IMG/VR virus record: IMGVR_UViG_3300045988_174371
Span: 224,001-288,000 of that record
From: a virus
Length of the DNA: 64,000 nt
Reading direction: 5' to 3' (one strand)
Of this stretch, positions 19,536 to 64,000 are shown piece by piece (position 1 is the first letter of the stretch; each line of letters starts with the position of its first letter). The notes under the pieces are model-generated. The model saw only the letters and a list, made by a program, of their open reading frames with translations. It was not told where the DNA came from and did not search any database. The translations under genes were made by a program, and so were the position numbers.

Positions 19536-19537
19536 AA

Positions 19538-20827: not shown

Positions 20828-20842
20828 AACCTATCTTCCTCA

Positions 20843-22345
20843 CTAATCCAAAGTCTCACTAATAACGTCACCTAGTGTCGTACCGGGCTCTAGGAGAACC
20901 CAATCGCCGGGAAGTACCTGGTGAACATACTTCTCCAACTCTGCGCCGCCATCCGTCAGTACTTTAACTTTCTCGGAGACAGGCAAAACGGCAGAGCTTT
21001 CATCTCCAAACCTCAGCTCTGCCTGGTCTACACGACCTGCTGAGATGAAACGTTCAAAGAACAAGCCGAACTCGATAGGGTCAATGTCAGTAATGCCCAG
21101 CAGATAAGCGACGATAGAGCCTCCAGCAGAGCCACGAGCGATACCTACCGCACTCATCACAATCTCATCAGCCGCATTACGGACACTGAACGATTCACGG
21201 AACCAATTCACGTATTCAGCCACGATAACCATGTAGCCACAATAGTTTGCTGAGGCTAGGGCATCAAGCTCTTTCTTTGCACGCTCCAACACCAGAGAGT
21301 ACTTATCCTTGTCATGGTGAAACTGCTCATAAGCGAGCGACGTAACCGTCCTACGCAAGTAGCTTTCCTCAGTCTCGTCCGCCGGAATGAGTGGCACAGG
21401 ACGCAAATCAGACCTGTACTCAAACAGCGAGAATCCTTGCACCTTGCCCGCAAGCTCAGCTGTATTAGTTACTGCACCTGGGTACTCCGTATCCGGGAAA
21501 AGACGCATCATCTCGTCTGCGCTCTTGAGGTAGTACTGGTCGCCGTCAAAGCAAAACCTGCGACCACCCTGTTCCTTCGGCAAGTCATTCATTGTTGAGC
21601 CTGTACCGATAGCAAGCATCTCCTCATGGTGGGGTGCATCCTGAGGCAATGCATAATGGCAATCGTTAGTTGCCAGTAGGCGCAACCCCAAATCCTTAGC
21701 GAGTGCGACCTGCTTCACCAGCAGGGACCGCTCCAAATCTGAAGACATCGAATGGTTCATAACCTCTACGAAGACGTTCTCGACACCGTAAATGTCGATA
21801 AGAGTCTGCGCATAGGAATAAGCCTCAGCATCCTGCCCCAAACGGAAACGGGTAGAAATCTCACCAGAGGGACATCCAGTAGATACCACAATGCCCGACG
21901 AATATTCCCTCATCATCTCCAAATCGATACGGGGGTACCCGCCGCGCTTATGCTCAGGGGAAGCCGCCAACATCTGCAACGTAAACATATTACGCAGACC
22001 CTCATCATTGACAGCCCACATCGTCAAATGCAGATAGTTACCCCTGCCAGACACATCCCCAACAGCCCCAGGCGCACCGTAAAAAACGGGAGTCTTCACT
22101 TTAGCACCCTCAGGGTTAATCGGTGCGACGTAGAACTCACAACCTGGTACGGGGGTGACACCAGCCTTTTGGCAACCCGTCACAAGTTCATAGATGCCGT
22201 GCATGTTGCCGTGGTCAGTGATACCCAGAGCAGTCTGACCTGCATCAACTGCACGCTGAATGTACTCGCTGACACTAGAGAAGCCGTCTAGCGTGGAGTA
22301 TGTTGAGTGCGTATGAAGGTTTACGAAAGATTCAGGGGAAACCAA
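20843..22345 (-). CDS. dnaE: DNA polymerase III alpha subunit, N-terminal fragment (PHP domain and start of palm)
   Basis: VNLHTHSTYSTLDGF, LGITDHGNMHG and GSAGGSIVAYLLGITDIDPIEFGLFFERFISAGR, followed by a 62-aa non-DnaE tail ending ISETLD. TTG start with GAGGAA upstream. Confidence 0.9.
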   Translation of the reverse strand: MVSPESFVNLHTHSTYSTLDGFSSVSEYIQRAVDAGQTALGITDHGNMHGIYELVTGCQKAGVTPVPGCEFYVAPINPEGAKVKTPVFYGAPGAVGDVSGRGNYLHLTMWAVNDEGLRNMFTLQMLAASPEHKRGGYPRIDLEMMREYSSGIVVSTGCPSGEISTRFRLGQDAEAYSYAQTLIDIYGVENVFVEVMNHSMSSDLERSLLVKQVALAKDLGLRLLATNDCHYALPQDAPHHEEMLAIGTGSTMNDLPKEQGGRRFCFDGDQYYLKSADEMMRLFPDTEYPGAVTNTAELAGKVQGFSLFEYRSDLRPVPLIPADETEESYLRRTVTSLAYEQFHHDKDKYSLVLERAKKELDALASANYCGYMVIVAEYVNWFRESFSVRNAADEIVMSAVGIARGSAGGSIVAYLLGITDIDPIEFGLFFERFISAGRVDQAELRFGDESSAVLPVSEKVKVLTDGGAELEKYVHQVLPGDWVLLEPGTTLGDVISETLD

Positions 22346-42478: not shown

Positions 42479-43591
42479 TTATAGGGCGGTGTAGTAGCCA
42501 TCCACAGACATGATAGAAGTGGAGTGAATAAGGGTACCCTCAGATGGGTTGAGAGCAGAAATCATCTTGCCGTCGCCCAGGTAGATACCGACATGGCTGT
42601 AACCGTTCTGGAATACAATGTCGCCCGGCTTCGGGTTGTTAGTAACCTTGAGTTCACTAGCCATAGCGTAGGTGTACGCGGTTAGCTTAATGCCCTGCTG
42701 GGCATAAACCCATGACACAAAACCAGAGCAGTCCCAAGCACGGAACGTCTTGCCGCCCCAAATGTATGCGCCACCCAGACCAGTCTTTGCAGTCTCAACA
42801 ATTGCCGCGCGGGTAGCATCCAGGTTGGAAGTGTCTACTGCCGTGGAAGCCGCCTTACTGGAAGTCTTATCTACACGCACATCAAAGTTGGACGTGTAAT
42901 TCCCGTTAGTAGTGGTAGTGGAGGCAGGAGCACCATTATTGGTTGCTACGGAAGTGGAAGGCGTATATACGCGCTGAGAGTTCGACTGCGCAGATACGAC
43001 GGTAGCTGAACCGGCGGCATTCAGACCAGCGGGAGAGGTATCCCCACTAGTGTGAGAAGCAGGAGGGGTAAGCTCATTCGCCTTAGCGTCTGCGCGTGCC
43101 TTAGCCGCAAGTTCCTCTGCCTTCTTCTTCTCAGCCTCAGCAGTTGCCTTAGCTTCATCCTCAGCCTTCTTCTCGGCATCCGCCTTAGCCGCAAGCTCAT
43201 TGCGGGTAGCGTCAATGCCGGTCAAGAACTTATCCATAGCATTTGCGCGCGCCTGAGCCTTGCGAGCCGCATCATTCTGAAGGTTATTGAGCGTCACCAT
43301 ATCGATAGTAACGTCGCCATTCTCCATGTACACAGTCTTAAACTGCGCACGCTCTTCAGGAGTAAACTCAACAACCTTAGTATTATTAACATCCACAAGG
43401 TCATTAACGCTTGAGGTGGTTGCCGGGGCAGTAAAAGACGCAGGCACATCCGCAACATGATTAGCGGCAGACGTATCTGCATACGCTACCGACGGGGCAA
43501 CCAGAGCGGCAATAATAGGAGTGGTCAGAGTCAGCTTAGTGTAAATGTTTTTCTTGCCCATAAGGGTAAGTAACTTTCTTGTAGGGGTCAT
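42479..43591 (-). CDS. Secreted NlpC/P60 peptidoglycan endopeptidase with coiled-coil region
   Basis: Signal peptide, an A/E/K-rich coiled coil, and the C-terminal YIWGGKTFRAWDCSGFVSWVY ... GDIVFQNGYSHVGIYLGDGKMISA (Cys-His catalytic blocks). The start is M1 (43591) or M11 (43561). Confidence 0.9.
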   Translation of the reverse strand: MTPTRKLLTLMGKKNIYTKLTLTTPIIAALVAPSVAYADTSAANHVADVPASFTAPATTSSVNDLVDVNNTKVVEFTPEERAQFKTVYMENGDVTIDMVTLNNLQNDAARKAQARANAMDKFLTGIDATRNELAAKADAEKKAEDEAKATAEAEKKKAEELAAKARADAKANELTPPASHTSGDTSPAGLNAAGSATVVSAQSNSQRVYTPSTSVATNNGAPASTTTTNGNYTSNFDVRVDKTSSKAASTAVDTSNLDATRAAIVETAKTGLGGAYIWGGKTFRAWDCSGFVSWVYAQQGIKLTAYTYAMASELKVTNNPKPGDIVFQNGYSHVGIYLGDGKMISALNPSEGTLIHSTSIMSVDGYYTAL

Positions 43592-43596
43592 CTGTC

Positions 43597-43820
43597 AGTG
43601 GCTTACGAAATTAGCTGTCAGGCTCGGCATGTCAGATTCTTGCCTAACTTCAGGTGAAGTCTTCGCCTCTAGAGAGATGCCTGTGATGCGCAAGACAATG
43701 CTTGTCGTACCCGCGCCGCAGGTACACATCTCAGATGTGGTTCTTCCGCCTCTCGGAAGGTAAATTGTTAGCCCCAAGGCTTGAGCTGAACCCCGAGAGC
43801 TCAACCAGCTCAGCTCGTCA
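43597..43820 (-). promoter_or_regulatory. ydaO: ydaO-yuaA-type (cyclic-di-AMP) riboswitch candidate
   Basis: The minus-strand RNA contains CCGAGCCUGACAGCUAAUUUCGUAAGCC (43600-43627). This closely parallels the conserved 3' core I recall from B. subtilis ydaO (CCGAACCCGUCAGCUAACCUCGUAAGCG). Upstream G-rich blocks CUCGGGGUUCAGC and CUUGGGGCUAAC are present. It sits directly 5' of an NlpC/P60 gene, a known context for this riboswitch in Actinobacteria. Confidence 0.65.
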
Positions 43821-46808: not shown

Positions 46809-49052
46809 CTACCACAGCTTCAAATCATACTTTGAAGTCGTTGAGCTGTCGTCATTTACCACAATATTCTCCAAATCTCCAGGCTTGAAAGCGGCTCCAC
46901 CAAAGAAGTACTCGGCACGCGCCGCCTTTAGAAAATACGGGTCAGGATACTCTAGACCGTCAGCATCCTTAAACGTCGCCTCCTTAGGCAGGTGGACAAC
47001 ATCGAGGGTTCCTTCACGATTACCCTGAGGCGCATACGCAAACCTAGTGTCACCGGATTCATCCTTATACGTCATCACAAAATCATATGAGCGTGAAGCA
47101 TCATCACTCTCCCACCAATACTCTTCAAAGCCATTAGCACTGTTTGACAGAGACGAGTCCTGCATATTGCTACGCTTATAGGTCAGAGACTCCTGCCTAG
47201 CTGTAGCACGACCAGCGAAAGCCGCCGCCAAAGTCTCCGCCTGCGAAACATCCGCAGGGTTCACAGTGGTACTAACATTAGGCAGGTAAGAGCGGCGCGA
47301 AACAGCTTGCGCCATATCCGTATAAGAGCCACCCCTAGCGCTCCTACCGCGCAACACTCGCAAGCGAGGAGTTATACCATCCTCTTCAGGGTTGCCGGGC
47401 ACAATGTCATCCAGGGTGGGCTCAAAAGTATCTGAAGCCATCTTATACTTGCCACTCTTCAGCCCCTCAACGATTACGTCAGAGAAGTACGGGTCTGTAG
47501 GGTCACCTTCAATACCTAGGCGGCTCTGCAATGCGACAAGGGCATTGTACTTGTCGTCTTCCTGCTCATTCCGAATGTAGTAATCCATTACACCTGAGAC
47601 GGCGACCGACTGGTACTGCAACTTGCGCAAACTGTTGAGCGCATCCTTCTGAGGGGCGGTGAGCTCCAAATGGGCGTTCTCCGGGTCTTGCGACAAGTCC
47701 TCGTATACATCCCTCAACTGTTCGCGCTCCTGTGCGTCCCACCTGTACGCCCGATACATGACAGCATCCTCTTGAGAGCCATACCTGCGGATAGCCGCCC
47801 TCTGCGTTACGGTATCTGAATAAGGGCTAATGTTTATTGCCACATACCCACCATCATCAATGTACTTCGTGATGGATTTATCTTTTTCGCGAACAACTGA
47901 CCCGGCAAATTGAGAGTCATTCTCTCGTAGAGGGTAATTCATATCCCCGTCTGGAGTCTGAGGGAGGCTGTGCAACAGCTCGCCATCTTCAGGGATGTAA
48001 GGGCTGGCAATACCAAACTCCATGACGTAGCCACTATCCGTCTCATCCCTATCCTGCCCCAACGGGTCAATAGTCTCAAACATTCTAACTCGACCACGCC
48101 CCTGAGGGGTCTCAGCCCAAACCTTCTGAGCGCGCTCAGCTTCCTCCTCATCAAGAGGCTTATCGAAGTTTCGCGTAATCCACGTAAGAGGCGAATACTC
48201 TACAGCCTTCAACTCCTCCGAAACATCATTACCCTCCGCCTCAAGGTCTTCCAGCATATTCCTACGCCACTCCAGAACCTCATCCAAGTCCTTCTCATCC
48301 CACCCAGCATACGCAAGAGCTTCCTTTATTCGCTCCGCATCAGTCTCAGGCTCCCAGTAGCGGTCATCGTCAAGCTCATATACAGGGCGGGCAATGCGCA
48401 TTGAAGAAACATCGAAGTCCAACGCGAACTGACCTGTATCAGGGTCAAGCCAACCCGCACTGTCCCTACCATGCTCGACAGGCTTACCCTGTACGGGCTG
48501 TTCAGTCTCTACCGGCGGCGTGGGCGGCGGGGCAATATCAATATCTACAATATGGAAGTTGTCGATAGCTTCCTCAAGAGTAGCCATTGGAATAGGCTGA
48601 GCAGGCTCTTCTGCCGCGCCAGCGTTATCGGCAGGCGGTGACGGGACATTGAGGTCAATGTCAATAAAGCTTACGTTCCCAATAGTGCCAGCGAGAGTTG
48701 CAGTGGACTCAACCTTCGGAGTTTCCTGTGGGGCTTCAGTGGGCTTATCGGGTTCAACTTCCAATAGGTCTGCTGGGTCACCTGGATAGGGATAATTCTC
48801 AGGGTCGCGGCTGTATAGCGTCCAAGGGGTTATGCCCAATGTCTCAAAAATTTCAGGGCTCAGACCATCCTCACCAAACGTATCTAGCGCCATATCGTAG
48901 TTATGTCGGCTCAAAGCTTCCAGCTCTAGCCAGCTATCTGCTTCAGCAGGAGTATTGAAGTGTGGAGCGTTGGAGGCGAACTTGCACTGATGCTCGGCAC
49001 TGCAAGGAAGCCGCCGGTTATCGTCGTTAATATGGTACTGTCCCTTAGCCAT
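46809..49052 (-). CDS. Large hypothetical protein (747 aa) with N-terminal H-C-C-H module
   Basis: The N-terminus QYHINDDNRRLPCSAEHQCKFASNAPHFNTPAEA is shared with the 504-aa protein at 53664-55178. The remainder is acidic with no recognised domain. Confidence 0.55.
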   Translation of the reverse strand: MAKGQYHINDDNRRLPCSAEHQCKFASNAPHFNTPAEADSWLELEALSRHNYDMALDTFGEDGLSPEIFETLGITPWTLYSRDPENYPYPGDPADLLEVEPDKPTEAPQETPKVESTATLAGTIGNVSFIDIDLNVPSPPADNAGAAEEPAQPIPMATLEEAIDNFHIVDIDIAPPPTPPVETEQPVQGKPVEHGRDSAGWLDPDTGQFALDFDVSSMRIARPVYELDDDRYWEPETDAERIKEALAYAGWDEKDLDEVLEWRRNMLEDLEAEGNDVSEELKAVEYSPLTWITRNFDKPLDEEEAERAQKVWAETPQGRGRVRMFETIDPLGQDRDETDSGYVMEFGIASPYIPEDGELLHSLPQTPDGDMNYPLRENDSQFAGSVVREKDKSITKYIDDGGYVAINISPYSDTVTQRAAIRRYGSQEDAVMYRAYRWDAQEREQLRDVYEDLSQDPENAHLELTAPQKDALNSLRKLQYQSVAVSGVMDYYIRNEQEDDKYNALVALQSRLGIEGDPTDPYFSDVIVEGLKSGKYKMASDTFEPTLDDIVPGNPEEDGITPRLRVLRGRSARGGSYTDMAQAVSRRSYLPNVSTTVNPADVSQAETLAAAFAGRATARQESLTYKRSNMQDSSLSNSANGFEEYWWESDDASRSYDFVMTYKDESGDTRFAYAPQGNREGTLDVVHLPKEATFKDADGLEYPDPYFLKAARAEYFFGGAAFKPGDLENIVVNDDSSTTSKYDLKLW

Positions 49053-49280: not shown

Positions 49281-50000
49281 ATGGCTAAGAAGATTGGCAT
49301 CTTTGACCGCATCTCCCAGCTGGTGAAGGCAAACATCAACGACCTCCTGGACAAGGCAGAAGACCCTCAGAAGATGCTGGCTCAGCTCATCCTTGACTAC
49401 ACCAACAACATCCGCGAAGCAGAAGGCTCTGTTGCTCAGCTCATCGGCACCCTCCGCCTACTGGAGAAGGACTACGCCGAAGACGAGAAGACTGCGAAGG
49501 AGTGGGGCACTAAGGCTCTAGCCGCCTCCAATAAGGCAGACGAGTACCGCGCCGCCGGTGACACCGCCAACGCTGACAAGTTCGACAGGCTCGCCAAGAC
49601 CGCCATCTCCAACCAGCTCGCCGCTGAGAAGAAGATGCAGATTGCTGAGCCTCAGATTACTGCACAGGCCGAGACTGTCAATAAGCTCAAGGCAAGCCTT
49701 GACGTTATGCGCAACAAGCTTGAGCAGGTGAAGCAGAAGAAGGCTGAGCTGGAGGCGCGCCAGAAGACCGCTGAAGCTACCCTGCTCATGGCAGAAACTT
49801 CCAAGAACTTCAACACTATTGACCCCACCTCTGCACTGGCAGGTGTGGAAGAGAAGGTTCGCCGCCTGGAAGCCAAGTCCCTGGGTGAGCAGGAGCTTGC
49901 TGAAAGCCGCCTAGATGACGACTTCGAGGCACTTGCAGACCTTGAGCGTGACCAGGAGCTAGAGGCTCGCCTTGCGGCTCTGAAGGGTAACAAGGCATAG
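49281..50000 (+). CDS. pspA: PspA/IM30 family membrane-stress protein
   Basis: MAKKIGIFDRISQLVKANINDLLDKAEDPQKMLAQLILDY is the typical PspA N-terminus. Long coiled coil throughout. Confidence 0.9.
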   Translation: MAKKIGIFDRISQLVKANINDLLDKAEDPQKMLAQLILDYTNNIREAEGSVAQLIGTLRLLEKDYAEDEKTAKEWGTKALAASNKADEYRAAGDTANADKFDRLAKTAISNQLAAEKKMQIAEPQITAQAETVNKLKASLDVMRNKLEQVKQKKAELEARQKTAEATLLMAETSKNFNTIDPTSALAGVEEKVRRLEAKSLGEQELAESRLDDDFEALADLERDQELEARLAALKGNKA

Positions 50001-50074
50001 CCCTAAGGCAATAACGTCACCCAGCGATGCATTACATGTAGGTGATTTGGCTGTTACCCCGCAGGAGTGACGCA

Positions 50075-50114
50075 GTGAAACCCCCAACCAGTCAAGGTTG
50101 GGGGTTTCACTTTT
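50075..50114 (+). terminator. Intrinsic terminator of pspA
   Basis: 15-bp perfect arms gtgaaacccccaacc (50075-50089) and ggttgggggtttcac (50097-50110) followed by TTTT. It abuts the 3' end of the minus-strand tRNA. Confidence 0.8.
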
Positions 50115-50122
50115 ATACGCAG

Positions 50123-50210
50123 AGACGGTGACGGGATTTGAACCCGCATACCCGCGAACGGGTGTAACAGTTTTGCAGACTGCCGCCTAAACCAATTCAG
50201 CCACACCGTC
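50123..50210 (-). tRNA. 88-nt class II-shaped tRNA with anticodon GCA (Cys) and discriminator U73; no encoded CCA
   Basis: Hand-folded. Acceptor stem GACGGTG/CACCGTC, U8, 3-bp D stem with GG in the loop, anticodon stem GCAGT/ACTGT, loop CTGCAAA. Long variable arm ACCCG-TTCG-CGGGT. T arm GCGGG-TTCAAAT-CCCGT. Confidence 0.85.
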
Positions 50211-50450
50211 GTAAGCCCCTCAGGGGCTATGTAAGCGGCTAATGCCAACTTATATGTAAAACTCTATCAGATGGAGGTTGAAATGCGCAAGCGGGGCATA
50301 TAGCCCCTTTGCAGGTGGCGGTATGCCCCGCTTGCGCGAGTGAAAATGCGTGTAAGTGTGCCCATCTATAAGCTCCGTCCAACGACCCTTACAATATGTC
50401 GCCGGTGCATATGGATGGATAATTACAACACTTACAGTATAGCGTATCTC

Positions 50451-53400
50451 CTACTTGGCTGTAAAGTACCCATCAACAGGCATCCATGAAGTCGGGTGGA
50501 TAAGGGTGCCATTTGACGGGTTGAGAGCAGAAATCATCTTCCCATCGCCCAAGTAGATACCAACATGGTTGTACCCGTTCTGGAACACAATGTCGCCAGG
50601 CTGAGGGGTGGCAGTAGGCTTCAGCTCATTCTTCATTGCAAAAGTGTACGGGGTGAGCTTAATGCCGTGCTGAGCGTAAACCCAGGAGACGAAGCCGGAG
50701 CAGTCCCACAACTTAAAGGTCTTGCCACCCCAAACATAGGTACCGCCTAGACCGCTCTTAGCCGTCGCCACAATCTTATCCTTAACGTTAGCGGACTGAT
50801 TAACTAGTGGCTCAGCGGATAGGCTTGCAGGCACTACAACTGACCCACGTGCGACATTATGCAGAGTACTGAGCTTGCCAGTGCGCGAGAACCACTGAGT
50901 AGTAGCGTTACGGTTACCAACAACGTCGCTCACCGGGAAGCCATGCTTGTCCCAGTGACCTTCACGAGCCCACTTCTTACCTACCTCGCTGTTGAACTGG
51001 ATGACGTGCGTGCGGTTAGCGGAAGCATCCCAGCCAACGATGTAGTAGTCGTCACCATTCTTGAAGTCCTGAGCACGCCCACCATGCACGTAATACTCTT
51101 CACTTACAGGAACGCCGAGTTTATTCTTGCCCACCTCGCCGTAGCTCAGCCACTTGCGCGCAATAGCACTATTGATGTCAATACTATGCACGCCGGTCTG
51201 CTCCGTCCATACCAGCTTAACGGTACGACCATCCTTAGTCAGGAAGTCCTGCGTCACAACACCGTTACCCTGGCTGGTTTCCTCAGAGATAGGTACACCA
51301 ATCTCGTTCTGGTGTTGCTCCCAATAGTGACCGATAGCGCCCGGCATCCAAATGTTATAAACACCAGTCTTCTCAGTCCACACCATCTTATGTCCAGAGC
51401 CGAAGTCCTGATAAGTGTAGCCGTTCTTAGTGACCTCTTCAGTCGTTGGGTACTTGTAGGTGCCTGCTGAGCCACCTGCCTGAACCCAACGGTTACCAAT
51501 CGCGCCGCGAGTCCAGATAGTCTTACCCCGAGCCTGATGAGAATAAACTACCGTATGCCCAGACTCGAAACGCTGTTCCCAGGAGGTAGCACTGGTCTTA
51601 CGCTCATTCTCAACAGGCGCACCATAGTTGCGCCTAGTGTCAGTCAGATACTTCTTAATACCATTGACAGCCTGGAACTTGGAGGTCGGGTCAGAAACAG
51701 AGACCTTGCCGGTAGCCTTATCCAAGGTAAGGCGAGTCACAACACCATTCTCAGTACGGAAGTCCTGGTAAACCGTGTTACCCTGAGCCACCTCATCGGT
51801 GATAGGCGTACCAATCGTGCGCACATCACCCATCTCAAGCCACTTATTCGTAATAGGCTCGAAGTTAGTCATGACGTGGACACCATTCTTGGCTGACCAA
51901 ATCAGTTTCTTGCCGCTATCGAAGTCTTGCTGTGCAGACTCACGGAAGCTGTACTCGTCAGTCAAGGGGTACCCAAAGCGCCCATATTCGTTACCGTTCT
52001 TTACCCAGAGGTCACCGATTGCTCCACGCAGGTAGATAGCACCACCCTTACCATCCTTACGGTGCAGGATACGGTAACTATTCGTGAAGTCCTGAGCCCA
52101 ACCTCCCGGCAACGCAAGCTCACGCCCAATAGGGGTGCCGTAACGCGCCTCATCCTTATGCCAGTAGCTACCGATACCAGAGTAAATGTTGATGTAGCCG
52201 CCGTTATTGAAGTGACGGTCACCATTATCCTTGACGGGAGCGGGGGCATCCTTCGGCTTCTCGGGGGCGGCAGAACGGTCAGTTACCGGCGAAGGGGACA
52301 CCTTGCCATTACTGCCCCACTTAGAAACATAATCGCGGTTGCGCACAAAGTTATCCAGCTCAGCGGCAGTACCGTTGAATACGTTGGAGTCACCGGCGAA
52401 CGGCGCAACAGATGAGAACTGCCAAATGTCGAAGCTGGTAGAGCCGCCAGGCATGAAGCCAGGACCCGTGGAATAGTTTGCAATATGCAACGGCAAACCA
52501 TTGAACTCATTGGTGCCACCCATACAAGTATTCCACCAGTCAGTAGTGGAGTAGATGGTGGGGTAGCGTCCGGTCTTATCCTTATAGGTATTCACAAAGT
52601 CCCACGTCCAAGTCTTCAACTGAGACTGAGACATGCCGAAGCAAGTGTTGCCTAGCGACGGGTAGGGGTTGTATTCCAAGTCAAGCATACCCGGCAAAGT
52701 CTTGCCGTCTGCCGTCCAGCCGCCACCGTTCTTAATGAAAATTTCAGCCTGAGTACGCCCAGAGGACTGCGGCGGCAAGGCGAAGTGGTAGCCGCCAGTG
52801 ACAAGACCTGCGTCACGTGCTCCCGCATAGTGCTTGGAGAACGTAGGGTCTACATAGGTGGTGCCTTCACTGCTCTTCATCCAGGAGAAGCGGCTACCAG
52901 CGGCATACTGCGCTCCCCAGTTGATGTTCGGCTGATGGTTCGAGACATCCTGACCTAGGACACCCCAGGAGGGCTTCCAGCCGTTCCTGGTGGTTAGCGG
53001 GACTACAGCCAGGGTAGGTGCGGTCGCGTTAGAGATAGTTGAGTCCTGTGCGCCAGTAAGGTTCTGCTTGTCAATAGCCTGCGCCTTAGCACCCCAGCCG
53101 ACAGTAGCGCCCCCCTTCTTCGCGCCCTCTTCAGGAGTCTCAGCGAGAGCAACCTGAATGTTCTGGACGGATACAGAGCCCTGCAAGGTAGGCGCGGCTT
53201 CAGTAGTAGCAGTATCACCCTCTAGATGGGTTTCCGCGTCATTCTTAATGGTTTCCGTCTCGGAGACCGTAATAGTTGAACCGGCGGTAAGAGGCTTCTT
53301 CTTCTCATCCGGCTCAGCATTAGCCACAGCCGGAGCTACTGTGCCTGCAATAGTAGCAGTCAGCAGGGCAGAAGCGAGAACGGTCTTCTTAACGTTGGTA

Positions 53401-53519
53401 TTGGTCTTCGTAGTCAAAAGTTTGTTTCCTTCAAATGTGTTACTCGGGTCGCATAGCTCTATGAACGTACAACCGGCGGTCAAGTCTAGCGGCTCATTGA
53501 ACCTCACCTGTTTAGGCAT
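50451..53519 (-). CDS. Secreted mosaic cell-wall hydrolase: GH25 muramidase + eight LGFP-type repeats + NlpC/P60
   Basis: GH25 blocks DVSNHQPNINWG, MKSSEGTTYVDP and GGYHFALP. Repeated ...G.P.(S/T).E......Q.F units (e.g. GYPLTDEY...QQDF, LGVPVSEEY...AQDF). C-terminal YVWGGKTFKLWDCSGFVSWVY ... GYNHVGIYLGDGKMISA. The true start is probably downstream of the track start. Confidence 0.85.
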   Translation of the reverse strand: MPKQVRFNEPLDLTAGCTFIELCDPSNTFEGNKLLTTKTNTNVKKTVLASALLTATIAGTVAPAVANAEPDEKKKPLTAGSTITVSETETIKNDAETHLEGDTATTEAAPTLQGSVSVQNIQVALAETPEEGAKKGGATVGWGAKAQAIDKQNLTGAQDSTISNATAPTLAVVPLTTRNGWKPSWGVLGQDVSNHQPNINWGAQYAAGSRFSWMKSSEGTTYVDPTFSKHYAGARDAGLVTGGYHFALPPQSSGRTQAEIFIKNGGGWTADGKTLPGMLDLEYNPYPSLGNTCFGMSQSQLKTWTWDFVNTYKDKTGRYPTIYSTTDWWNTCMGGTNEFNGLPLHIANYSTGPGFMPGGSTSFDIWQFSSVAPFAGDSNVFNGTAAELDNFVRNRDYVSKWGSNGKVSPSPVTDRSAAPEKPKDAPAPVKDNGDRHFNNGGYINIYSGIGSYWHKDEARYGTPIGRELALPGGWAQDFTNSYRILHRKDGKGGAIYLRGAIGDLWVKNGNEYGRFGYPLTDEYSFRESAQQDFDSGKKLIWSAKNGVHVMTNFEPITNKWLEMGDVRTIGTPITDEVAQGNTVYQDFRTENGVVTRLTLDKATGKVSVSDPTSKFQAVNGIKKYLTDTRRNYGAPVENERKTSATSWEQRFESGHTVVYSHQARGKTIWTRGAIGNRWVQAGGSAGTYKYPTTEEVTKNGYTYQDFGSGHKMVWTEKTGVYNIWMPGAIGHYWEQHQNEIGVPISEETSQGNGVVTQDFLTKDGRTVKLVWTEQTGVHSIDINSAIARKWLSYGEVGKNKLGVPVSEEYYVHGGRAQDFKNGDDYYIVGWDASANRTHVIQFNSEVGKKWAREGHWDKHGFPVSDVVGNRNATTQWFSRTGKLSTLHNVARGSVVVPASLSAEPLVNQSANVKDKIVATAKSGLGGTYVWGGKTFKLWDCSGFVSWVYAQHGIKLTPYTFAMKNELKPTATPQPGDIVFQNGYNHVGIYLGDGKMISALNPSNGTLIHPTSWMPVDGYFTAK

Positions 53520-53663: not shown

Positions 53664-55178
53664 CTACCAGACCGTCCACCCCTCATAATCTTCTACAGCC
53701 ACCCTATCAGGGTATGCGGTGAAACCAATCGGAGTTTCCGTCTTGCTCGCGCCTGCACGATACAGACCTAGCGCCCTATCTGCGTTAGTGAGAACAGGTG
53801 AGTTGTCTCCCTCGTAAGCCCCCACAGTCTGATAGAGAACCCCATCAGCATTGGTCTCCAAAACTACAGCATACTGCTGGGAACTACCCCCACCGCTGGG
53901 TCTACAAACAATATCACCTGGGGCGACATGAGACATCGCCTCTCTCTCCCCCAAATCCCTGAACATCTCGTCGCGGTAATGGGCGTAACTACTAGTCGCA
54001 AACTTGCGGCGACGCTCCTGCTCAGCTGAAGTCATGTAGCTATGGGAGATAATGTCATTCCACTCCAAAGCCTTAATATCTTCTTTCAAAGACTCGCCGC
54101 GCGTAGGAGACTGAGCAATAACCGCCTGACGGGGAGTTTGCGGCGGCACCTCACCATCAGCCACAATAAGAAGCTGTTCAAGCTCATCTGCCGACTTCCC
54201 TACACCCATAAGGTTAGGGTTGATGACCAGATAACCGTGTTCGGTTGGTTGGGATGAACATGCTTCCAAGAGCTGACGCATCTGCCGTGCATCTCGCGGG
54301 TAGTGCAACCCATTCTCATCAACATCAGTCTCAGCGGTCTGAAGCCACACTTGATACTCTGGGTGGTTCTGAAGCGCATCAGCAACCGCCTGCCGGATAG
54401 CTTCTTGAGTCCCTTCATCTAACTGGTGTGATGCACGAAGCGACTCTGGCAAATGTGAAGCAGTCATAAGTCTCTCAAGGAGTATGCCGGTATGCTTCGC
54501 TAATGCTCTGTTGTGGTTATTTAGGTAATGCGCGTATGCCGCGTTCGCATACCCCAAATACCTCTTCTCACCAATACCTTCAATGCGTTTAAGGTATTGC
54601 GATTTATTTTTTGAAAGCTGTTCATATGAGGGATACTTCTTGTCGGCGGCAATGACCATCGCAGTAGTCTGACTATTCGTCTTTTCCCGCTTATGCGCCT
54701 CAAACATAGCCTTAGCCGTAGCAATATTCGCAGGACTCGAAGACGACAACCCGGCAGGAGTTACCTTAGCCAACCTTGAAATGGATGTCGTCTCCACAAT
54801 CTCCCATAACGAAAGCGGAGTGGTTGAAACATAATTCGGGGCAGAAACAGAGGTAGCGTCAGTATCAGCATACATCTTGTCGGCAGGCTGTTTCTTCGCG
54901 ACCGCATAGTCAATACGCGCGCGGCTGTCAGCGGCATAAGCGGCGGCATCAGTGTCAGGGATAAGGGATACCTGCTCCTTCGTGAGCGTAGAACGCTCAG
55001 CTGGAGCCTTGCCTTCCAGGACAGCCTTAGCAGAAATCTGCTCAGCGGCTTCAATTGCCTCAATCAGAGTGTCGAAGTGCAGAACACCCTCACCATTATT
55101 CAGGTGCCTGTACGCGCAAACATCCCTGCCTCGGCACTCATTAGGCTTATTATTGGGGGAGATGTGGTAGCATTGCAT
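53664..55178 (-). CDS. Hypothetical protein (504 aa) with N-terminal H-C-C-H module
   Basis: The N-terminus QCYHISPNNKPNECRGRDVCAYRHLNNGEGVLHFDTLIEAIEA is paralogous to the N-terminus of the 747-aa protein. The remainder is unassigned. Confidence 0.55.
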   Translation of the reverse strand: MQCYHISPNNKPNECRGRDVCAYRHLNNGEGVLHFDTLIEAIEAAEQISAKAVLEGKAPAERSTLTKEQVSLIPDTDAAAYAADSRARIDYAVAKKQPADKMYADTDATSVSAPNYVSTTPLSLWEIVETTSISRLAKVTPAGLSSSSPANIATAKAMFEAHKREKTNSQTTAMVIAADKKYPSYEQLSKNKSQYLKRIEGIGEKRYLGYANAAYAHYLNNHNRALAKHTGILLERLMTASHLPESLRASHQLDEGTQEAIRQAVADALQNHPEYQVWLQTAETDVDENGLHYPRDARQMRQLLEACSSQPTEHGYLVINPNLMGVGKSADELEQLLIVADGEVPPQTPRQAVIAQSPTRGESLKEDIKALEWNDIISHSYMTSAEQERRRKFATSSYAHYRDEMFRDLGEREAMSHVAPGDIVCRPSGGGSSQQYAVVLETNADGVLYQTVGAYEGDNSPVLTNADRALGLYRAGASKTETPIGFTAYPDRVAVEDYEGWTVW

Positions 55179-61386: not shown

Positions 61387-62607
61387 CTACAGGTCACGAA
61401 CCATGCGCATTACGCTATGTGCGTCGCTCAGTAGCCCTGCAAGGCGTTCATGGGCGCTGGGTGGTACATTCTTGCCGGTGGCGGTGATGCACGCCTGAGA
61501 GATGCCATCAATCGCCGCCGCAAGGCTGACAGCTACAGGCTCCACAATCTCAGGGTCACATTTCACCACCTGTGACATAGGCGGGCTAGGCTTTTCAGCA
61601 GTAGAAGCATCGTCGCCTGCCTCACTCACGGGAGCGCTTACAGGGGGCGCGGTTTCAACGGGCGTAGCATCCTCCTCCGAAGCAGAATCGTCGTCAGTGT
61701 GCTCAACAGAATACTCGGGCAGTCGCCCAGCAATGTCTTCCGGTAGGCTCGCCCTAAACGTCTCATACGCATCAATAACCCACTGACACGTTTCCGTATA
61801 CTGCTCACGCTGAGTCTTATTGGACTGCTCGATAAGGAACGTAAGAAACGCAGTCAGCTCAACGCCATCCTCATGGACAGTCTCAGTATTACCGACACTA
61901 TAGGGAGGCAACGTGAGGCGACGCATTGAAGTAGCCGTCTCAGGCGAGTTCCGAAGCTCAGACGTGAGAGCACCCATAGCGACACCAAGGAGCCTATTCA
62001 CGCCCTTGATGCGCGCATAAACCTCACCGTCGCAATACTGTAGGTGAATGAACTTGAAGCTCTTAACGTGGCTCCCCGCATGAGCGACCATCGTGTGCGG
62101 GTTATCGAGAAGGAACGTTGCGTGGTGAACCTTGCCGGAAGCCTCAGACTCAGAGAATAGCGGCTCAGGCGCGGGAAAATGATTTGTGGCTTCTTTCAAC
62201 CCGTCAATGCGGGGCGGCATCTTCGGCAGGTGGGAAGCCACCTCTTCTTGAAGTTCCTGAAGCCAAGACACCATTTCCTGAACAGACTTCTTGTGCTTGA
62301 AGATGCGGATAACGTGCTCTACAGTAACGAAGGACTCCATGTGGTTGTGGAACTCCGTTCTCTGCTCTTCAGGAGGGATAGCATAGAAGCTCTTCCCCCA
62401 CTTGTAGGATGACCTTTTGACATAGTTGTAAGGAATGATGCGAGTGCCGAAAAGCTCACTCGGGAAAGACCTGTTTACATACAAGGTGTCGCCAGCGATA
62501 GCGAAGTAGATGGGGAGAGACTTGTATGGTGAGGGGCACTTCTCGTGAATTTCCAGGGTGTCATTACTTGTGTTGAAAGAGAAGATGTACGGGTTTTCGA
62601 AGGTCAA
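61387..62607 (-). CDS. Hypothetical protein, tandem paralogue A (406 aa)
   Basis: Shares PIYFAIAGDTLYVNRSFPSELFG, PPEEQRTEFHN, an acidic linker and the C-terminal ISQACITATGKNVPPSAHERLAGLLSDAH with the next gene. TTG start with GAAAGGA upstream. Confidence 0.55.
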   Translation of the reverse strand: MTFENPYIFSFNTSNDTLEIHEKCPSPYKSLPIYFAIAGDTLYVNRSFPSELFGTRIIPYNYVKRSSYKWGKSFYAIPPEEQRTEFHNHMESFVTVEHVIRIFKHKKSVQEMVSWLQELQEEVASHLPKMPPRIDGLKEATNHFPAPEPLFSESEASGKVHHATFLLDNPHTMVAHAGSHVKSFKFIHLQYCDGEVYARIKGVNRLLGVAMGALTSELRNSPETATSMRRLTLPPYSVGNTETVHEDGVELTAFLTFLIEQSNKTQREQYTETCQWVIDAYETFRASLPEDIAGRLPEYSVEHTDDDSASEEDATPVETAPPVSAPVSEAGDDASTAEKPSPPMSQVVKCDPEIVEPVAVSLAAAIDGISQACITATGKNVPPSAHERLAGLLSDAHSVMRMVRDL

Positions 62608-62737: not shown

Positions 62738-64000
62738 TTAGATGGAGTTTACGTCCTTCAATGCCAGGTGTGCATTGGTCAGCAGTTTAGTGAGCTTGCT
62801 GTGAACGTCAGCGGGAATTTCCTGTGCGGTAGCGGCAAAGCACGCGCTGGAAATGTGGTCGATGACCTCAAGAAGTTCCTGCCGCAAAGCCTCAACCGGC
62901 GACTGAGACTCAGTGTCGGCAGGAGCGTGCAACTTACGGGAAGCTTCAATGATGCGCTCAAAAGCCTCAGCAGTTTTCTGCTGAACCTTATCTACAGCGG
63001 GTAGGAGCTTGTCTGCGGGGGTCTCAGGGGCATCCTCGGCAGTAGCCTCATCTACCTTCTCCTCAGGGGCATCTTCCTTCACTACCGCTACGGGCTCAGG
63101 CTCTTCCACAGTATCCTCAGCCACAACCTCAGTGGTAGCTTCTTCGGAGGCATCTACGTCAGAGGGGAAGTCAGCCCTCAGGTCGGGGAGCTTGGCGGCA
63201 TCTTCATCAGAAAGACCCGCCTTCAGGGTTTCATACGCAGTAAGAAGCCATTCACGAGCGTGTTCATGTTCGCCGCGCAGACGGCGGACGCGGCTACGCT
63301 CAATGATGCGGTCAAGGGTCTCCAGCATGGAGCGAATATCCACGGAATTGAGGGTGTCGTAGCTGGTGGCGGTCTTTACTCGGATGCTCGACTTCGGGGC
63401 ATCAACAGCGTACTTATTGTACTGCGCCCAGAAGTTCTGGTGGGTAACCTTCCACACCTCGTTCATGTAGTGCAGGGTGACCTGTACACCACCATTTCCG
63501 TCATGCTGGAGGTGGACAAGCTTGCGTCCACGGCGGATGCTAGACAGGTCAGTGATAGGGGTCTTCGGGTCAGTCGGCATGAAGGTCATAACAACTCGCT
63601 TACCGTGACGCATCTCGCGCGCCTTCTCGGTGTCGCCCTTGGTTACGGTTACGGGCGGAGTGCCAGGGAGGTAAGGGACTACTTCAAGGAGGCAGTTATT
63701 CAGCCAGTCATGCATCTTTCGTGCCTCGGGGCGTTCCTTGAGTGCCATAATTGCGAAGCGGATAGGAACAAAGTCCTCTACGTAATTATGTTCGCCTACG
63801 CGCTGTTCTTCGGGGATTTCACACGAGATGGCGCGGGCATTATTGTCGGCAAGAATCTGGTAAATGCGGTCGAAGGGGAATACGTCGTCACCAAATGCTT
63901 CATTCGGGAGCGATGCGTTCACGTAGACGTTGCCGTTGTGGATGGCGAAATAGACGGGAGTCGATTCGTCAGGGCAGGGCACGAGGGGGTGGAGCGAGGT
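62738..64000 (-). CDS. Hypothetical protein, tandem paralogue B; 5' end probably beyond the right edge
   Basis: PVYFAIHNGNVYVNASLPNEAFG, IPEEQRVGEHN and ISSACFAATAQEIPADVHSKLTKLLTNAH. The reading frame stays open from 63982 to 64000 (TSLHPL), aligning with LEIHEK of paralogue A, so the track GTG start is probably internal. Confidence 0.55.
   Translation of the reverse strand, partial: TSLHPLVPCPDESTPVYFAIHNGNVYVNASLPNEAFGDDVFPFDRIYQILADNNARAISCEIPEEQRVGEHNYVEDFVPIRFAIMALKERPEARKMHDWLNNCLLEVVPYLPGTPPVTVTKGDTEKAREMRHGKRVVMTFMPTDPKTPITDLSSIRRGRKLVHLQHDGNGGVQVTLHYMNEVWKVTHQNFWAQYNKYAVDAPKSSIRVKTATSYDTLNSVDIRSMLETLDRIIERSRVRRLRGEHEHAREWLLTAYETLKAGLSDEDAAKLPDLRADFPSDVDASEEATTEVVAEDTVEEPEPVAVVKEDAPEEKVDEATAEDAPETPADKLLPAVDKVQQKTAEAFERIIEASRKLHAPADTESQSPVEALRQELLEVIDHISSACFAATAQEIPADVHSKLTKLLTNAHLALKDVNSI

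What the first reader, a model, noticed from the sequence alone, without database searches (positions are those of the whole stretch)
50123..50210. Class II-shaped tRNA (long variable arm) carrying a Cys anticodon GCA and U73
The only tRNA in the window folds into a clean cloverleaf of 88 nt. It has a 5-bp variable-arm stem with a TTCG loop and a 3-bp D stem. The D arm (GGCTGAATTGGTTTAGGC) resembles Leu/Ser tRNAs. In bacteria, long variable arms are the hallmark of Leu, Ser, Tyr and Sec tRNAs, not Cys. However, the anticodon loop is CT-GCA-AA and the discriminator is U. Those are the two main CysRS identity elements known from E. coli. It is therefore either an architecturally unprecedented tRNA-Cys, or a Ser/Leu-type body that reads UGC/UGU, which would mean deliberate mistranslation or recoding. 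It has no encoded CCA and sits wedged against the pspA terminator.
Basis: partly seen in the sequence, partly recalled or inferred. Interest (0 to 1): 0.7.

Follow-up and report, generated by a model that had tools for sequence, protein, structure and literature searches.

The report
Long-armed cysteine tRNA on giant element
This is a real, conserved cysteine tRNA that carries an extra hairpin arm; it sits on a ~360-kb circular element of an oral bacterium (probably Rothia) and is one example of a common but apparently undescribed habit of phage-borne tRNAs, not a device for rewriting the genetic code.

Summary
An 88-nt, 7/5 cloverleaf tRNA lies on the minus strand at 50123-50210, with anticodon GCA, U73, a 5-bp UUCG-capped variable arm and no encoded CCA. 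It is a functional gene: seven alleles at the same locus in related ~200-390-kb oral elements keep every helix, and two sub-lineages about 10% diverged differ only by two compensatory pair swaps. A conserved extended -10-like motif precedes it.

It is most likely a genuine tRNA-Cys charged by CysRS, not a Ser/Leu body reading Cys codons. It lacks the SerRS determinants (A2:U71, C3:G70 and U73, against G2:C71 and G73 in the element's own tRNA-Ser). U73 excludes LeuRS and TyrRS. With the arm removed, its nearest neighbours are class I tRNA-Cys.

It is not unprecedented. About 8% of tRNA-Cys genes in IMG/VR viral contigs are long-armed, about 98% of those have U73, and their acceptor stems look like ordinary tRNA-Cys. 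Long arms also occur on Asn, Pro, Lys and other phage tRNAs. I found no paper describing 7/5 long-arm tRNA-Cys. Charging was not tested.

The parts
50123..50210 (-). tRNA-Cys(GCA): 88 nt, 7/5 acceptor/T, 3-bp D stem, 19-nt variable region (5-bp stem, UUCG loop), U73, no encoded CCA
   Evidence: ARAGORN; Rfam tRNA at 54.9 bits; seven alleles with 99.4% of pair cells paired and compensatory changes
50147..50165 (-). Variable region UAC[ACCCG-UUCG-CGGGU]AU. Removing the hairpin leaves UACAU, a normal 5-nt class I variable loop
   Evidence: Sequence. Hairpin dG -7.0 kcal/mol, with 3 and 2 unpaired bases flanking the stem. The four core stem pairs stay paired across alleles (one A-U to G-U change) while the loop sequence and length vary
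50261..50269 (-). Extended -10-like promoter motif TG-A-TAGAGT (consensus TGnTAnnnT), about 50 nt upstream of the tRNA 5' end
   Evidence: Conserved block in the upstream alignment of seven lineages whose flanks are otherwise diverged; it reads TGATATAAT in L489/L497. Promoter function is inferred, not shown
50214..50228 (-). Leader hairpin AGCCCC-UGA-GGGGCU, 3 nt upstream of the mature 5' end. Present only in the window-type lineages
   Evidence: Sequence. Identical in the window, L243, L476 and L477. Present in L496 and absent from L489, L490, L493 and L497
50078..50107 (.). Hairpin AAACCCCCAACC-AGUCAA-GGUUGGGGGUUU between pspA and the tRNA. It is the pspA terminator and a likely shared stop for the converging tRNA transcript
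   Evidence: Sequence. Conserved with covariation in relatives with and without the tRNA. The consensus terminator scan did not call it, because only 4 U follow the stem
50285..50337 (-). Long hairpin downstream of the GH25-LGFP-NlpC/P60 gene. Likely that gene's terminator, separating it from the tRNA promoter
   Evidence: Sequence. The relatives have a different sequence at this position that can form an equivalent hairpin
49281..50000 (+). pspA (PspA/IM30), converging on the tRNA. Used as the anchor to find related elements
   Evidence: Pfam PF04012, E=4.6e-34; homologues
50451..53519 (-). GH25 muramidase - LGFP repeats - NlpC/P60 wall hydrolase, upstream neighbour on the same strand as the tRNA
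   Evidence: Pfam; syntenic in all relatives

Best explanation
This is a functional tRNA-Cys gene. It is carried as an accessory gene by a ~360.6-kb circular extrachromosomal element (jumbo phage or giant plasmid) of an oral actinobacterium, probably Rothia.

Proposed mechanism:
- It is transcribed from its own extended -10 promoter.
- It is processed by host RNase P and given CCA by the host CCA-adding enzyme.
- It is charged with cysteine by the host CysRS, through U73 and the GCA anticodon.
- It decodes UGC/UGU as cysteine, supplementing what is usually the scarcest cellular tRNA.

[quoted passage not shown] It is most simply a hairpin inserted into a 5-nt variable loop. CysRS is expected to tolerate it because class I synthetases bind the opposite, minor-groove face of the tRNA.

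Shown here: the gene, its fold, its conservation and covariation, its lack of Ser/Leu/Tyr identity elements, and the wide occurrence of such tRNAs.

Inferred: the promoter, the processing, charging by CysRS, and use in translation.
For: Fold and anticodon.

Purifying selection:
- L001 and L476 are 89.6% identical over 20 kb. About 9 substitutions would be expected in 88 nt.
- The tRNA differs at only 4 positions: A29-U41 to G29-C41 and G30-C40 to C30-G40.
- Simulated probability of that pattern is 2.6e-5.
- Seven alleles at the syntenic locus keep 99.4% of pair cells paired.
- A conserved TGnTAnnnT motif lies upstream.

Cys identity rather than Ser, Leu or Tyr:
- The tRNA has U73 and GCA.
- It has A2:U71 and C3:G70, whereas 145 long-arm tRNA-Ser from the same kinds of loci have G2:C71 in 95% and A3:U70 in 78%.
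- The element's own tRNA-Ser(GCU) has G2:C71, G73 and a 6-bp arm with (1,1) geometry.
- G1-C72 and G2-C71 are reported as conserved in bacterial tRNA-Ser, A73 as essential for LeuRS, and A73 plus U35 for TyrRS (PMC9976931).

Body type: with the arm deleted and the anticodon loop and discriminator masked, 7 of the 12 nearest neighbours are class I tRNA-Cys. One of them has an identical acceptor stem.

Class-level support:
- 87 long-arm GCA tRNAs turned up in 120 rows when U73 was required, against 2 in 120 rows when non-U was required.
- Their 2:71 and 3:70 pairs match those of class I tRNA-Cys.

Precedent: CysRS cysteinylates the long-armed selC* tRNA-Cys in vitro (PMC5389517). Class I synthetases bind the minor-groove side of the acceptor stem (PMC7373986).
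Against: - No aminoacylation, expression or proteomic data exist for this tRNA.
- SerRS recognises mainly the long arm and does not read the anticodon. U73 is tolerated in some tRNA-Ser: 26% of the long-arm tRNA-Ser in my sample have U73. Some serylation therefore cannot be excluded, and this tRNA's 5-bp arm is within the tRNA-Ser length range.
- Cys codons are only 0.65% of the window's codons, so there is no obvious special demand.
- Eight sampled relatives of the element lack the gene, so it is dispensable.
- In the seven-allele alignment, U73, the T loop and the acceptor 3' strand were fixed by my search pattern. Their invariance there is not evidence.
- Only about 80 of 360 kb could be inspected for other tRNAs or aaRS genes.
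Confidence: 0.77

Rival explanations
1. A missense or dual-identity tRNA. SerRS seizes the long arm and charges it with serine, wholly or partly, so UGC/UGU is sometimes read as Ser. This is deliberate or tolerated mistranslation.
For: Serine identity relies mainly on the variable arm and ignores the anticodon, and G73 is only of moderate importance in E. coli (PMC9976931). Mukai et al. regard a long arm plus G73 or U73 as compatible with SerRS. 26% of the long-arm tRNA-Ser in my sample have U73. The window tRNA has a 5-bp arm and C11:G24.
Against: A2:U71 and C3:G70 replace the G2:C71 and A3:U70 kept by 95% and 78% of tRNA-Ser. The arm geometry is (3,2), not (1,1). Three of the seven alleles have only a 4-bp arm. 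Across the class, U73 is about 98%, although G73 would serve SerRS at least as well, and C2:G71, reported as an antideterminant against E. coli SerRS, is the commonest 2:71 pair. The element carries a fully canonical tRNA-Ser of its own.
Confidence: 0.07
2. A tRNA with a non-translational or defensive role. Examples: a donor for a tRNA-dependent transferase; a decoy or nuclease-resistant replacement that counters host or competitor toxins targeting tRNA-Cys; or a handle recognised by a factor of the element. In these readings the extra arm is the functional feature.
For: The arm helix is conserved while its loop drifts. Long arms recur on many class I isotypes in phage arrays, which hints at a general selective reason. 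13 viral loci carry both a long and a canonical short tRNA-Cys. The gene sits among cell-wall enzymes.
Against: No transferase, toxin or aaRS gene was found within about 10 kb. All translational features are intact: U8, A14, G18G19, U33, A37, the GUUCAAAU T loop and a possible A15:U48 pair. Duplicate isoacceptors are common in phage arrays, so co-occurrence is weak evidence.
Confidence: 0.1
3. A decaying pseudogene, an integration-site remnant, or a chance cloverleaf.
For: It is a lone gene in an intergenic gap. It is absent from eight syntenic relatives. It has no encoded CCA.
Against: 54.9 bits to Rfam tRNA. All 25 pairs are standard. Only compensatory changes separate lineages that are 10% diverged. 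Seven alleles are maintained, with a conserved upstream motif. It is a complete tRNA rather than a 3' fragment.
Confidence: 0.02

Closest known systems
Canonical bacterial and phage class I tRNA-Cys(GCA)
   Same: GCA anticodon, U73, 7/5 acceptor/T arms, C32-U33...A37-A38 loop, and a 3-bp D stem with a 13/22 mismatch. The acceptor-stem composition of the long-arm class is close to that of class I tRNA-Cys. The arm-deleted window tRNA is nearest to class I tRNA-Cys.
   Different: A 19-nt variable region with a 5-bp hairpin instead of a 4-5-nt loop, and a longer D loop.
selC* tRNA-Cys (Mukai et al. 2017, PMC5389517)
   Same: Long variable arm combined with U73 and a GCA anticodon. It was shown to be cysteinylated by CysRS and to work in translation. 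It is the only described long-armed tRNA-Cys I could find.
   Different: selC* is Sec-like: an 8/4 acceptor/T arrangement with an A51a bulge, longer anticodon and acceptor stems, often a UCA anticodon, linkage to selB*/cysS*, and a home in anaerobic Firmicutes and Deltaproteobacteria. The present tRNA is a plain 7/5 form, with no such neighbours, on a mobile element.
Bacterial class II tRNAs (Ser, Leu, Tyr)
   Same: Long variable arm, 3-bp D stem and an enlarged D loop. Most long-arm tRNA-Cys in phages share the tRNA-Tyr arm geometry (1,3) with 3-4 bp, and some have a Tyr-type D arm (L244, L307).
   Different: Discriminator (U, not G or A), anticodon and acceptor pairs 2:71 and 3:70. The window tRNA's arm geometry (3,2) matches none of the three.
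allo-tRNAs and nematode nev-tRNAs (long-armed tRNAs with non-Ser/Leu anticodons)
   Same: A class II shape combined with an anticodon of another amino acid.
   Different: Those are charged according to their Ser/Leu-type body (or are inactive) and have 8/4 or 9/3 structures (allo) or Leu/Ser identity elements (nev). Here the identity elements follow the anticodon.
Type I (short-armed) tRNA-Leu of Streptomyces coelicolor (PMC6614811)
   Same: An example of a tRNA crossing the class I/II boundary while keeping its amino-acid identity, in an actinobacterium.
   Different: The opposite direction: the arm is lost rather than gained.

Membership tests
tRNA (Rfam RF00005) | Cloverleaf scoring above the gathering threshold, with conserved tertiary nucleotides | tested here: met
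   54.9 bits against 29, full length. U8, A14, G18G19, U33 and G53-UUCAAAU-C61 are present.
tRNA-Cys | Anticodon GCA | tested here: met
   ARAGORN and the Rfam alignment both place GCA at positions 34-36.
tRNA-Cys | Discriminator U73, the major CysRS determinant | tested here: met
   U follows the 7-bp acceptor stem. U73 is about 98% in the long-arm class in an unbiased pair of scans.
tRNA-Cys | Short (4-5 nt) variable loop, i.e. class I architecture | tested here: not met
   19-nt variable region with a 5-bp stem.
tRNA-Cys | Aminoacylation with cysteine by CysRS | not testable with these tools
   Needs in vitro charging or acylated tRNA sequencing.
tRNA-Ser (bacterial) | G1:C72 and G2:C71 acceptor pairs, with G73 | tested here: not met
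   The window tRNA has G1:C72 but A2:U71, C3:G70 and U73. The tRNA-Ser set has G2:C71 in 95% and G73 in 70%.
tRNA-Ser (bacterial) | Long variable arm of Ser type: 5-7 bp, with one unpaired base on each side | tested here: inconclusive
   The arm length (5 bp) is within the Ser range, but the geometry is (3,2) rather than (1,1). Three alleles have 4 bp.
tRNA-Leu | A73 and a Leu anticodon | tested here: not met
   U73 and GCA. 99% of the long-arm tRNA-Leu in my set have A73.
tRNA-Tyr (bacterial) | A73, GUA anticodon, arm geometry (1,3) | tested here: not met
   U73, C35 and geometry (3,2).
selC* tRNA-Cys | 8/4 acceptor/T arrangement (with the A51a bulge) and a Sec-like extended anticodon stem | tested here: not met
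   7-bp acceptor and 5-bp T stem. U8 faces U65, so no eighth pair can form.
selC* tRNA-Cys | Linkage to selB*/cysS* | tested here: not met
   No such genes within 10 kb on either side.
allo-tRNA | 12-bp acceptor branch arranged 8/4 or 9/3, with a Sec-like D arm | tested here: not met
   7/5 arrangement, 3-bp D stem with an 11-nt loop.

The most novel reading that the evidence does not exclude
The extra arm is the point, not a passenger. On this reading, phages and giant elements repeatedly graft variable arms onto class I tRNAs (Cys, Asn, Pro, Lys and others). The arm would mark them for a function that host tRNAs lack. Possible functions include resistance to tRNA-targeting nucleases, recognition by an element-encoded factor, or controlled dual Cys/Ser charging. 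The Rothia-element tRNA-Cys would be one conserved instance.
Probability: 0.12. Interest if true: 0.75.

Novelty: new variant of a known kind. Interest (0 to 1): 0.45.

Why it matters
Textbooks and identity reviews state that bacterial long-arm (class II) tRNAs are Leu, Ser, Tyr and Sec. This locus and the survey around it show that rule to be leaky for mobile-element tRNAs. Roughly one in twelve viral tRNA-Cys genes has a long arm, and their discriminator and acceptor stems still follow cysteine rules.

This matters in three ways:
- **Annotation.** Such genes invite false 'recoding' calls.
- **Synthetase specificity.** CysRS appears to tolerate a long arm, and SerRS appears to be kept off by acceptor-stem features.
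- **Engineering.** These are natural long-armed Cys tRNAs that might serve as orthogonal scaffolds.

For this window in particular, the practical message is that the gene is an ordinary-function tRNA with an unusual shape.

Tried and rejected
- **Near and distant DNA searches** of the locus against plasmids and phages found nothing useful.
- **PHROGs** on ten large ORFs gave no hits, so the phage-versus-plasmid question stays open.
- **Walking along the 360-kb contig** to inventory all tRNAs and aaRS genes failed. Look-ups are limited to window-encoded proteins and one ORF start was not on record. Only about 80 kb was inspected.
- **Nearest-neighbour classification with the arm included** was uninformative for the window tRNA, with scores of about 0.3 to His, Ser, Leu and Cys alike. 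It became informative only with the arm removed.
- **A single tRNA-Tyr origin (GUA to GCA, A73 to U73) for the whole class.** The arm geometry supports it, but body similarity supports it for only about 10%. The class looks polyphyletic.
- **The element is an 'Inocle'.** Rejected: Inocles have 24-32% GC and a Streptococcus host.
- **The tRNA is an attachment-site remnant.** Rejected: it is a complete, covarying gene.
- **The sigma-70 consensus scan** gave only one site, overlapping the GH25 stop codon, no better than shuffles. The comparative alignment was more informative.
- **Literature searches** with several wordings found no description of 7/5 long-arm tRNA-Cys. The library lacks most subscription journals.

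Full report
**1. The observation**

The window holds one tRNA. ARAGORN reports tRNA-Cys (gca) at 50122-50210 on the minus strand. Rfam's tRNA model matches 50123-50210 (-) at 54.9 bits, against a gathering score of 29. The match is full length, with CUGCAAA on the anticodon loop and the extra arm treated as an insertion.

The sequence reads as follows:
- Acceptor stem GACGGUG/CACCGUC, 7 bp.
- U8, G9.
- D stem G10-C25, C11-G24, U12-G23, with G13 opposite A22.
- D loop AAUUGGUUUA.
- Anticodon stem GCAGU/ACUGU.
- Variable region UAC-ACCCG-UUCG-CGGGU-AU.
- T arm GCGGG-UUCAAAU-CCCGU.
- Discriminator U73, then CUG, so no encoded CCA.

All 25 cloverleaf pairs are standard. An 8/4 or 9/3 fold is not available, because U8 faces U65. 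The free-energy z-score alone is modest (-2.4). The case for the fold rests on the covariance model and on comparative data.

**2. The replicon**

The same locus occurs on contigs of 360,715 bp (ENA, human oral metagenome, k127 assembly) and 360,588 bp (JGI).
- The two lengths differ by exactly 127, the assembler's k-mer.
- The window maps to different, oppositely oriented positions in the two contigs.
- This indicates a complete circular genome of about 360.6 kb.
- The window is positions 224,001-288,000 of the JGI contig.

IMG/VR lists the element as a viral genome (UViG_3300045988_174689, 306,861 bp).

The window and its flanks encode the following:
- Replication and repair: a split DnaE, a clamp-loader-like ATPase, RecA, a PIF1-type helicase, a dNMP kinase, LigA, HU, a DNA methylase and an FtsK-like protein.
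- Secretion and signalling: SecA, a signal peptidase, two sortases, a Ser/Thr kinase with a PP2C phosphatase, PspA and glutaredoxin.
- Cell wall: an Rpf-like transglycosylase and wall hydrolases.

Ten large ORFs match no PHROG family. The DnaE is about 35% identical to Streptomyces phage DnaE.

Named PspA homologues at 61-64% identity are all from Rothia. Together with LGFP repeats and a c-di-AMP riboswitch ahead of an NlpC/P60 gene, this points to an oral Rothia as host. That assignment is an inference. The element is not an 'Inocle', because Inocles have 24-32% GC and a Streptococcus host.

**3. Is the gene functional?**

PspA homologues led to a family of syntenic elements on contigs of 200-390 kb.

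Close relatives (PspA 96% identical; L476, L477, L483) carry the tRNA.
- Over 20 kb these relatives are only 89.6% identical to the window type, so about 9 substitutions would be expected in 88 nt.
- The tRNA differs at exactly four positions. These form two fully compensatory swaps in the anticodon stem: A29-U41 to G29-C41, and G30-C40 to C30-G40.
- The 20 nt just downstream carry four unpaired substitutions.
- In a simulation, four random substitutions form two compensatory pairs with probability 2.6e-5.

A metagenome scan found ten further loci with the homologous tRNA.
- The scan fixed only the anticodon loop, the T loop and the 3' acceptor strand with U73.
- All ten tRNAs lie between pspA and the GH25 gene, on contigs of up to 358 kb.
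- Some are in elements whose PspA is only 57-63% identical.

There are seven distinct alleles in all.
- 99.4% of pair cells are paired. The one exception is an alignment artefact.
- The anticodon stem covaries.
- The four core pairs of the variable-arm stem stay paired (one A-U to G-U change), while its loop varies: UUCG, UUAUC, CUAGC, CUAUC or CUAAGU.
- The D loop varies in length.

Upstream, an extended -10-like motif TGnTAnnnT is conserved in all seven lineages. It reads TGATAGAGT here (50269-50261, minus strand) and TGATATAAT in L489/L497. The surrounding flanks are otherwise diverged.

Eight other relatives lack the tRNA. Their pspA-GH25 gap is 230-290 nt, against 451 nt here. The gene is therefore an accessory gene that has been gained, lost or exchanged by recombination. 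GH25 is 90-93% identical where PspA is about 60% identical, which suggests a recombination breakpoint at this locus. The pseudogene reading can be set aside.

**4. Which amino acid?**

Published identity rules (PMC9976931):
- CysRS uses U73 and GCA.
- LeuRS needs A73.
- TyrRS needs A73 and U35.
- SerRS uses the long arm, with G1-C72 and G2-C71 conserved in bacterial tRNA-Ser and G73 of moderate weight. C2-G71 acts against SerRS.

The window tRNA has U73, GCA, G1:C72, A2:U71 and C3:G70.

The element's own tRNA-Ser(GCU), about 5 kb beyond the window, is textbook: G1:C72, G2:C71, G73, a 6-bp arm with one unpaired base on each side, and an encoded CCA.

I assembled 2,227 unique tRNAs from the loci fetched:
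- Long-arm tRNA-Ser has G2:C71 in 95% and A3:U70 in 78%.
- Long-arm tRNA-Leu has A73 in 99%.
- Long-arm tRNA-Tyr has A73 in 92%.

Variable-arm geometry, given as unpaired bases 5' and 3' of the stem, separates the classes:
- Ser: (1,1), 5-7 bp.
- Leu: (1,2).
- Tyr: (1,3), about 3 bp.
- The window tRNA: (3,2), 5 bp, unlike any of the three.

Deleting its hairpin leaves UACAU, a normal 5-nt class I loop. With the hairpin deleted and the anticodon loop and discriminator masked, 7 of its 12 nearest neighbours are class I tRNA-Cys. About 0.7 would be expected by frequency. The best neighbour has the identical acceptor stem.

CysRS is a class I enzyme. Class I enzymes bind the minor-groove side of the acceptor stem (PMC7373986). 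That the arm points away from the enzyme is my inference from this. CysRS has been shown to charge the long-armed selC* tRNA-Cys (PMC5389517).

I conclude that this is a tRNA-Cys. Charging itself is untested, and some serylation cannot be excluded.

**5. Is it unprecedented?**

No. Four lines of evidence show this.

Viral contigs:
- ARAGORN found 87 long-arm (80 nt or more) GCA tRNAs in those loci, usually inside tRNA arrays.
- The same scan requiring a non-U discriminator gave 120 rows with only 2 such tRNAs, and 80 loci with no tRNA at all.
- Allowing for the threefold higher chance rate of that pattern, U73 is about 98% in this class.

Base rate. Opening the gap to include class I lengths gave about 103 short and about 9 long tRNA-Cys genes in the same stretch of database, which is roughly 8% long.

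Acceptor stems:
- Long-arm Cys, pair 2:71: C:G 36%, U:A 24%, G:C 23%, A:U 15%.
- Class I Cys, pair 2:71: G:C 36%, U:A 26%, C:G 22%, A:U 13%.
- The two are similar, and both are unlike tRNA-Ser.

Body type:
- The typical arm geometry of the long-arm class is that of tRNA-Tyr, (1,3).
- Their bodies are nearest to class I Cys in 44 of 101 cases, to Ser in 26 and to Tyr in 10. Controls classified correctly 67-90% of the time.
- The class is therefore heterogeneous and probably polyphyletic.

Cellular genome and MAG contigs also hold these tRNAs, in 25 of 120 rows, mostly in dense arrays.

Long arms are not peculiar to Cys. Among tRNAs flanking viral tRNA-Cys genes:
- Long arms occur on Asn (13%), Pro (11%), Lys (10%), Met, Val and His (about 6% each), and Glu and Ile (about 5% each).
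- Only 59% of tRNA-Leu are long.

In those unselected neighbours the discriminator follows the anticodon's synthetase.

**6. Comparison with what is known**

The only described long-armed tRNA-Cys I found is selC* (8/4, Sec-like, linked to selB*/cysS*). This tRNA fails those defining features.

Allo-tRNAs (8/4 or 9/3) and nev-tRNAs are charged according to their Ser/Leu-type body. Here the identity elements follow the anticodon.

Seven literature searches found no description of a 7/5 long-arm tRNA-Cys. The library lacks most subscription journals. An annotated-phage search found only an unannotated record.

**7. Verdict**

- The 'unprecedented architecture' claim is overtaken by the finding that such tRNAs are common on phage and mobile-element contigs, and conserved in this element family.
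- The 'mistranslation or recoding' claim is not supported.
- What remains of interest is the general and apparently undescribed leakiness of the class I/II boundary in mobile-element tRNAs, and the unanswered question of what the extra arm is for.
- I rate the finding as a new variant of a known kind, of moderate interest.

Noticed in passing
whole window 1-64000; L001, L002, L243, L474, L475: The window is part of a complete circular element of about 360.6 kb from human oral metagenomes. The JGI contig is 360,588 bp and the ENA k127 contig is 127 bp longer. GC is 52% and the host is probably Rothia. IMG/VR calls it viral, yet 0 of 10 large ORFs match PHROGs. It carries many cell-like genes: SecA, a signal peptidase, sortases, PspA, HU, RecA, LigA, a Ser/Thr kinase with PP2C, an Rpf-like transglycosylase and glutaredoxin. 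A family of syntenic 200-390-kb relatives exists; one PspA variant alone is indexed in 130 blocks. It is not an Inocle. I found no description of it.
   Followed up: partly
window 16824-22345 (-): The DnaE-type polymerase is split into a PHP-domain ORF (20843-22345) and a core/finger/HhH ORF (16824-19535). A clamp-loader-like AAA+ gene (19538-20827) lies between the two.
   Followed up: no
window 43585-43783 (-): A c-di-AMP (ydaO-type) riboswitch at 52.6 bits lies directly upstream of an NlpC/P60 wall-hydrolase gene (42479-43591) on this extrachromosomal element.
   Followed up: no
L475:18540-18631 (-) and L475:19650-19721 (-), about 5-6 kb beyond the right end of the window: The element carries two further dispersed tRNAs: a canonical class II tRNA-Ser(GCU) with encoded CCA, and a tRNA-Gly(CCC) without CCA.
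   Followed up: partly
L477:10803-12413 and L483:14367-15977: A 536-aa Cas12f1-like TnpB gene is inserted just beyond the GH25 hydrolase gene in some close relatives. It is absent from the window.
   Followed up: no
L489, L490, L497, L498 compared with window 49281-53519: Mosaic relatedness around the tRNA. The GH25 hydrolase is 90-93% identical to the window's, while the adjacent PspA is only 57-63% identical. This suggests a recombination breakpoint at the tRNA locus.
   Followed up: partly
window 46809-49052 (-) and 53664-55178 (-); 61387-62607 (-) and 62738-63982 (-): The 747-aa and 504-aa proteins of unknown function flanking the locus share an N-terminal Cys-containing motif (..YHI..N...C.....C....HF.T..EA). 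The two ORFs at 61-64 kb are tandem paralogues, with further copies in L475.
   Followed up: no
viral loci L003-L122 and L364-L472: In phage tRNA arrays the class I/II rule is generally leaky. 41% of tRNA-Leu are short-armed, and several percent of Asn, Pro, Lys, Met, Val, His, Glu and Ile tRNAs are long-armed. Their discriminators still match the anticodon's synthetase. 13 loci hold both a long and a short tRNA-Cys.
   Followed up: partly
window 50214-50228 (-): A stable hairpin (AGCCCC-UGA-GGGGCU) sits 3 nt upstream of the mature tRNA 5' end. It lies within a ~38-nt leader segment present only in the window-type lineages. Its effect on RNase P processing is unknown.
   Followed up: partly
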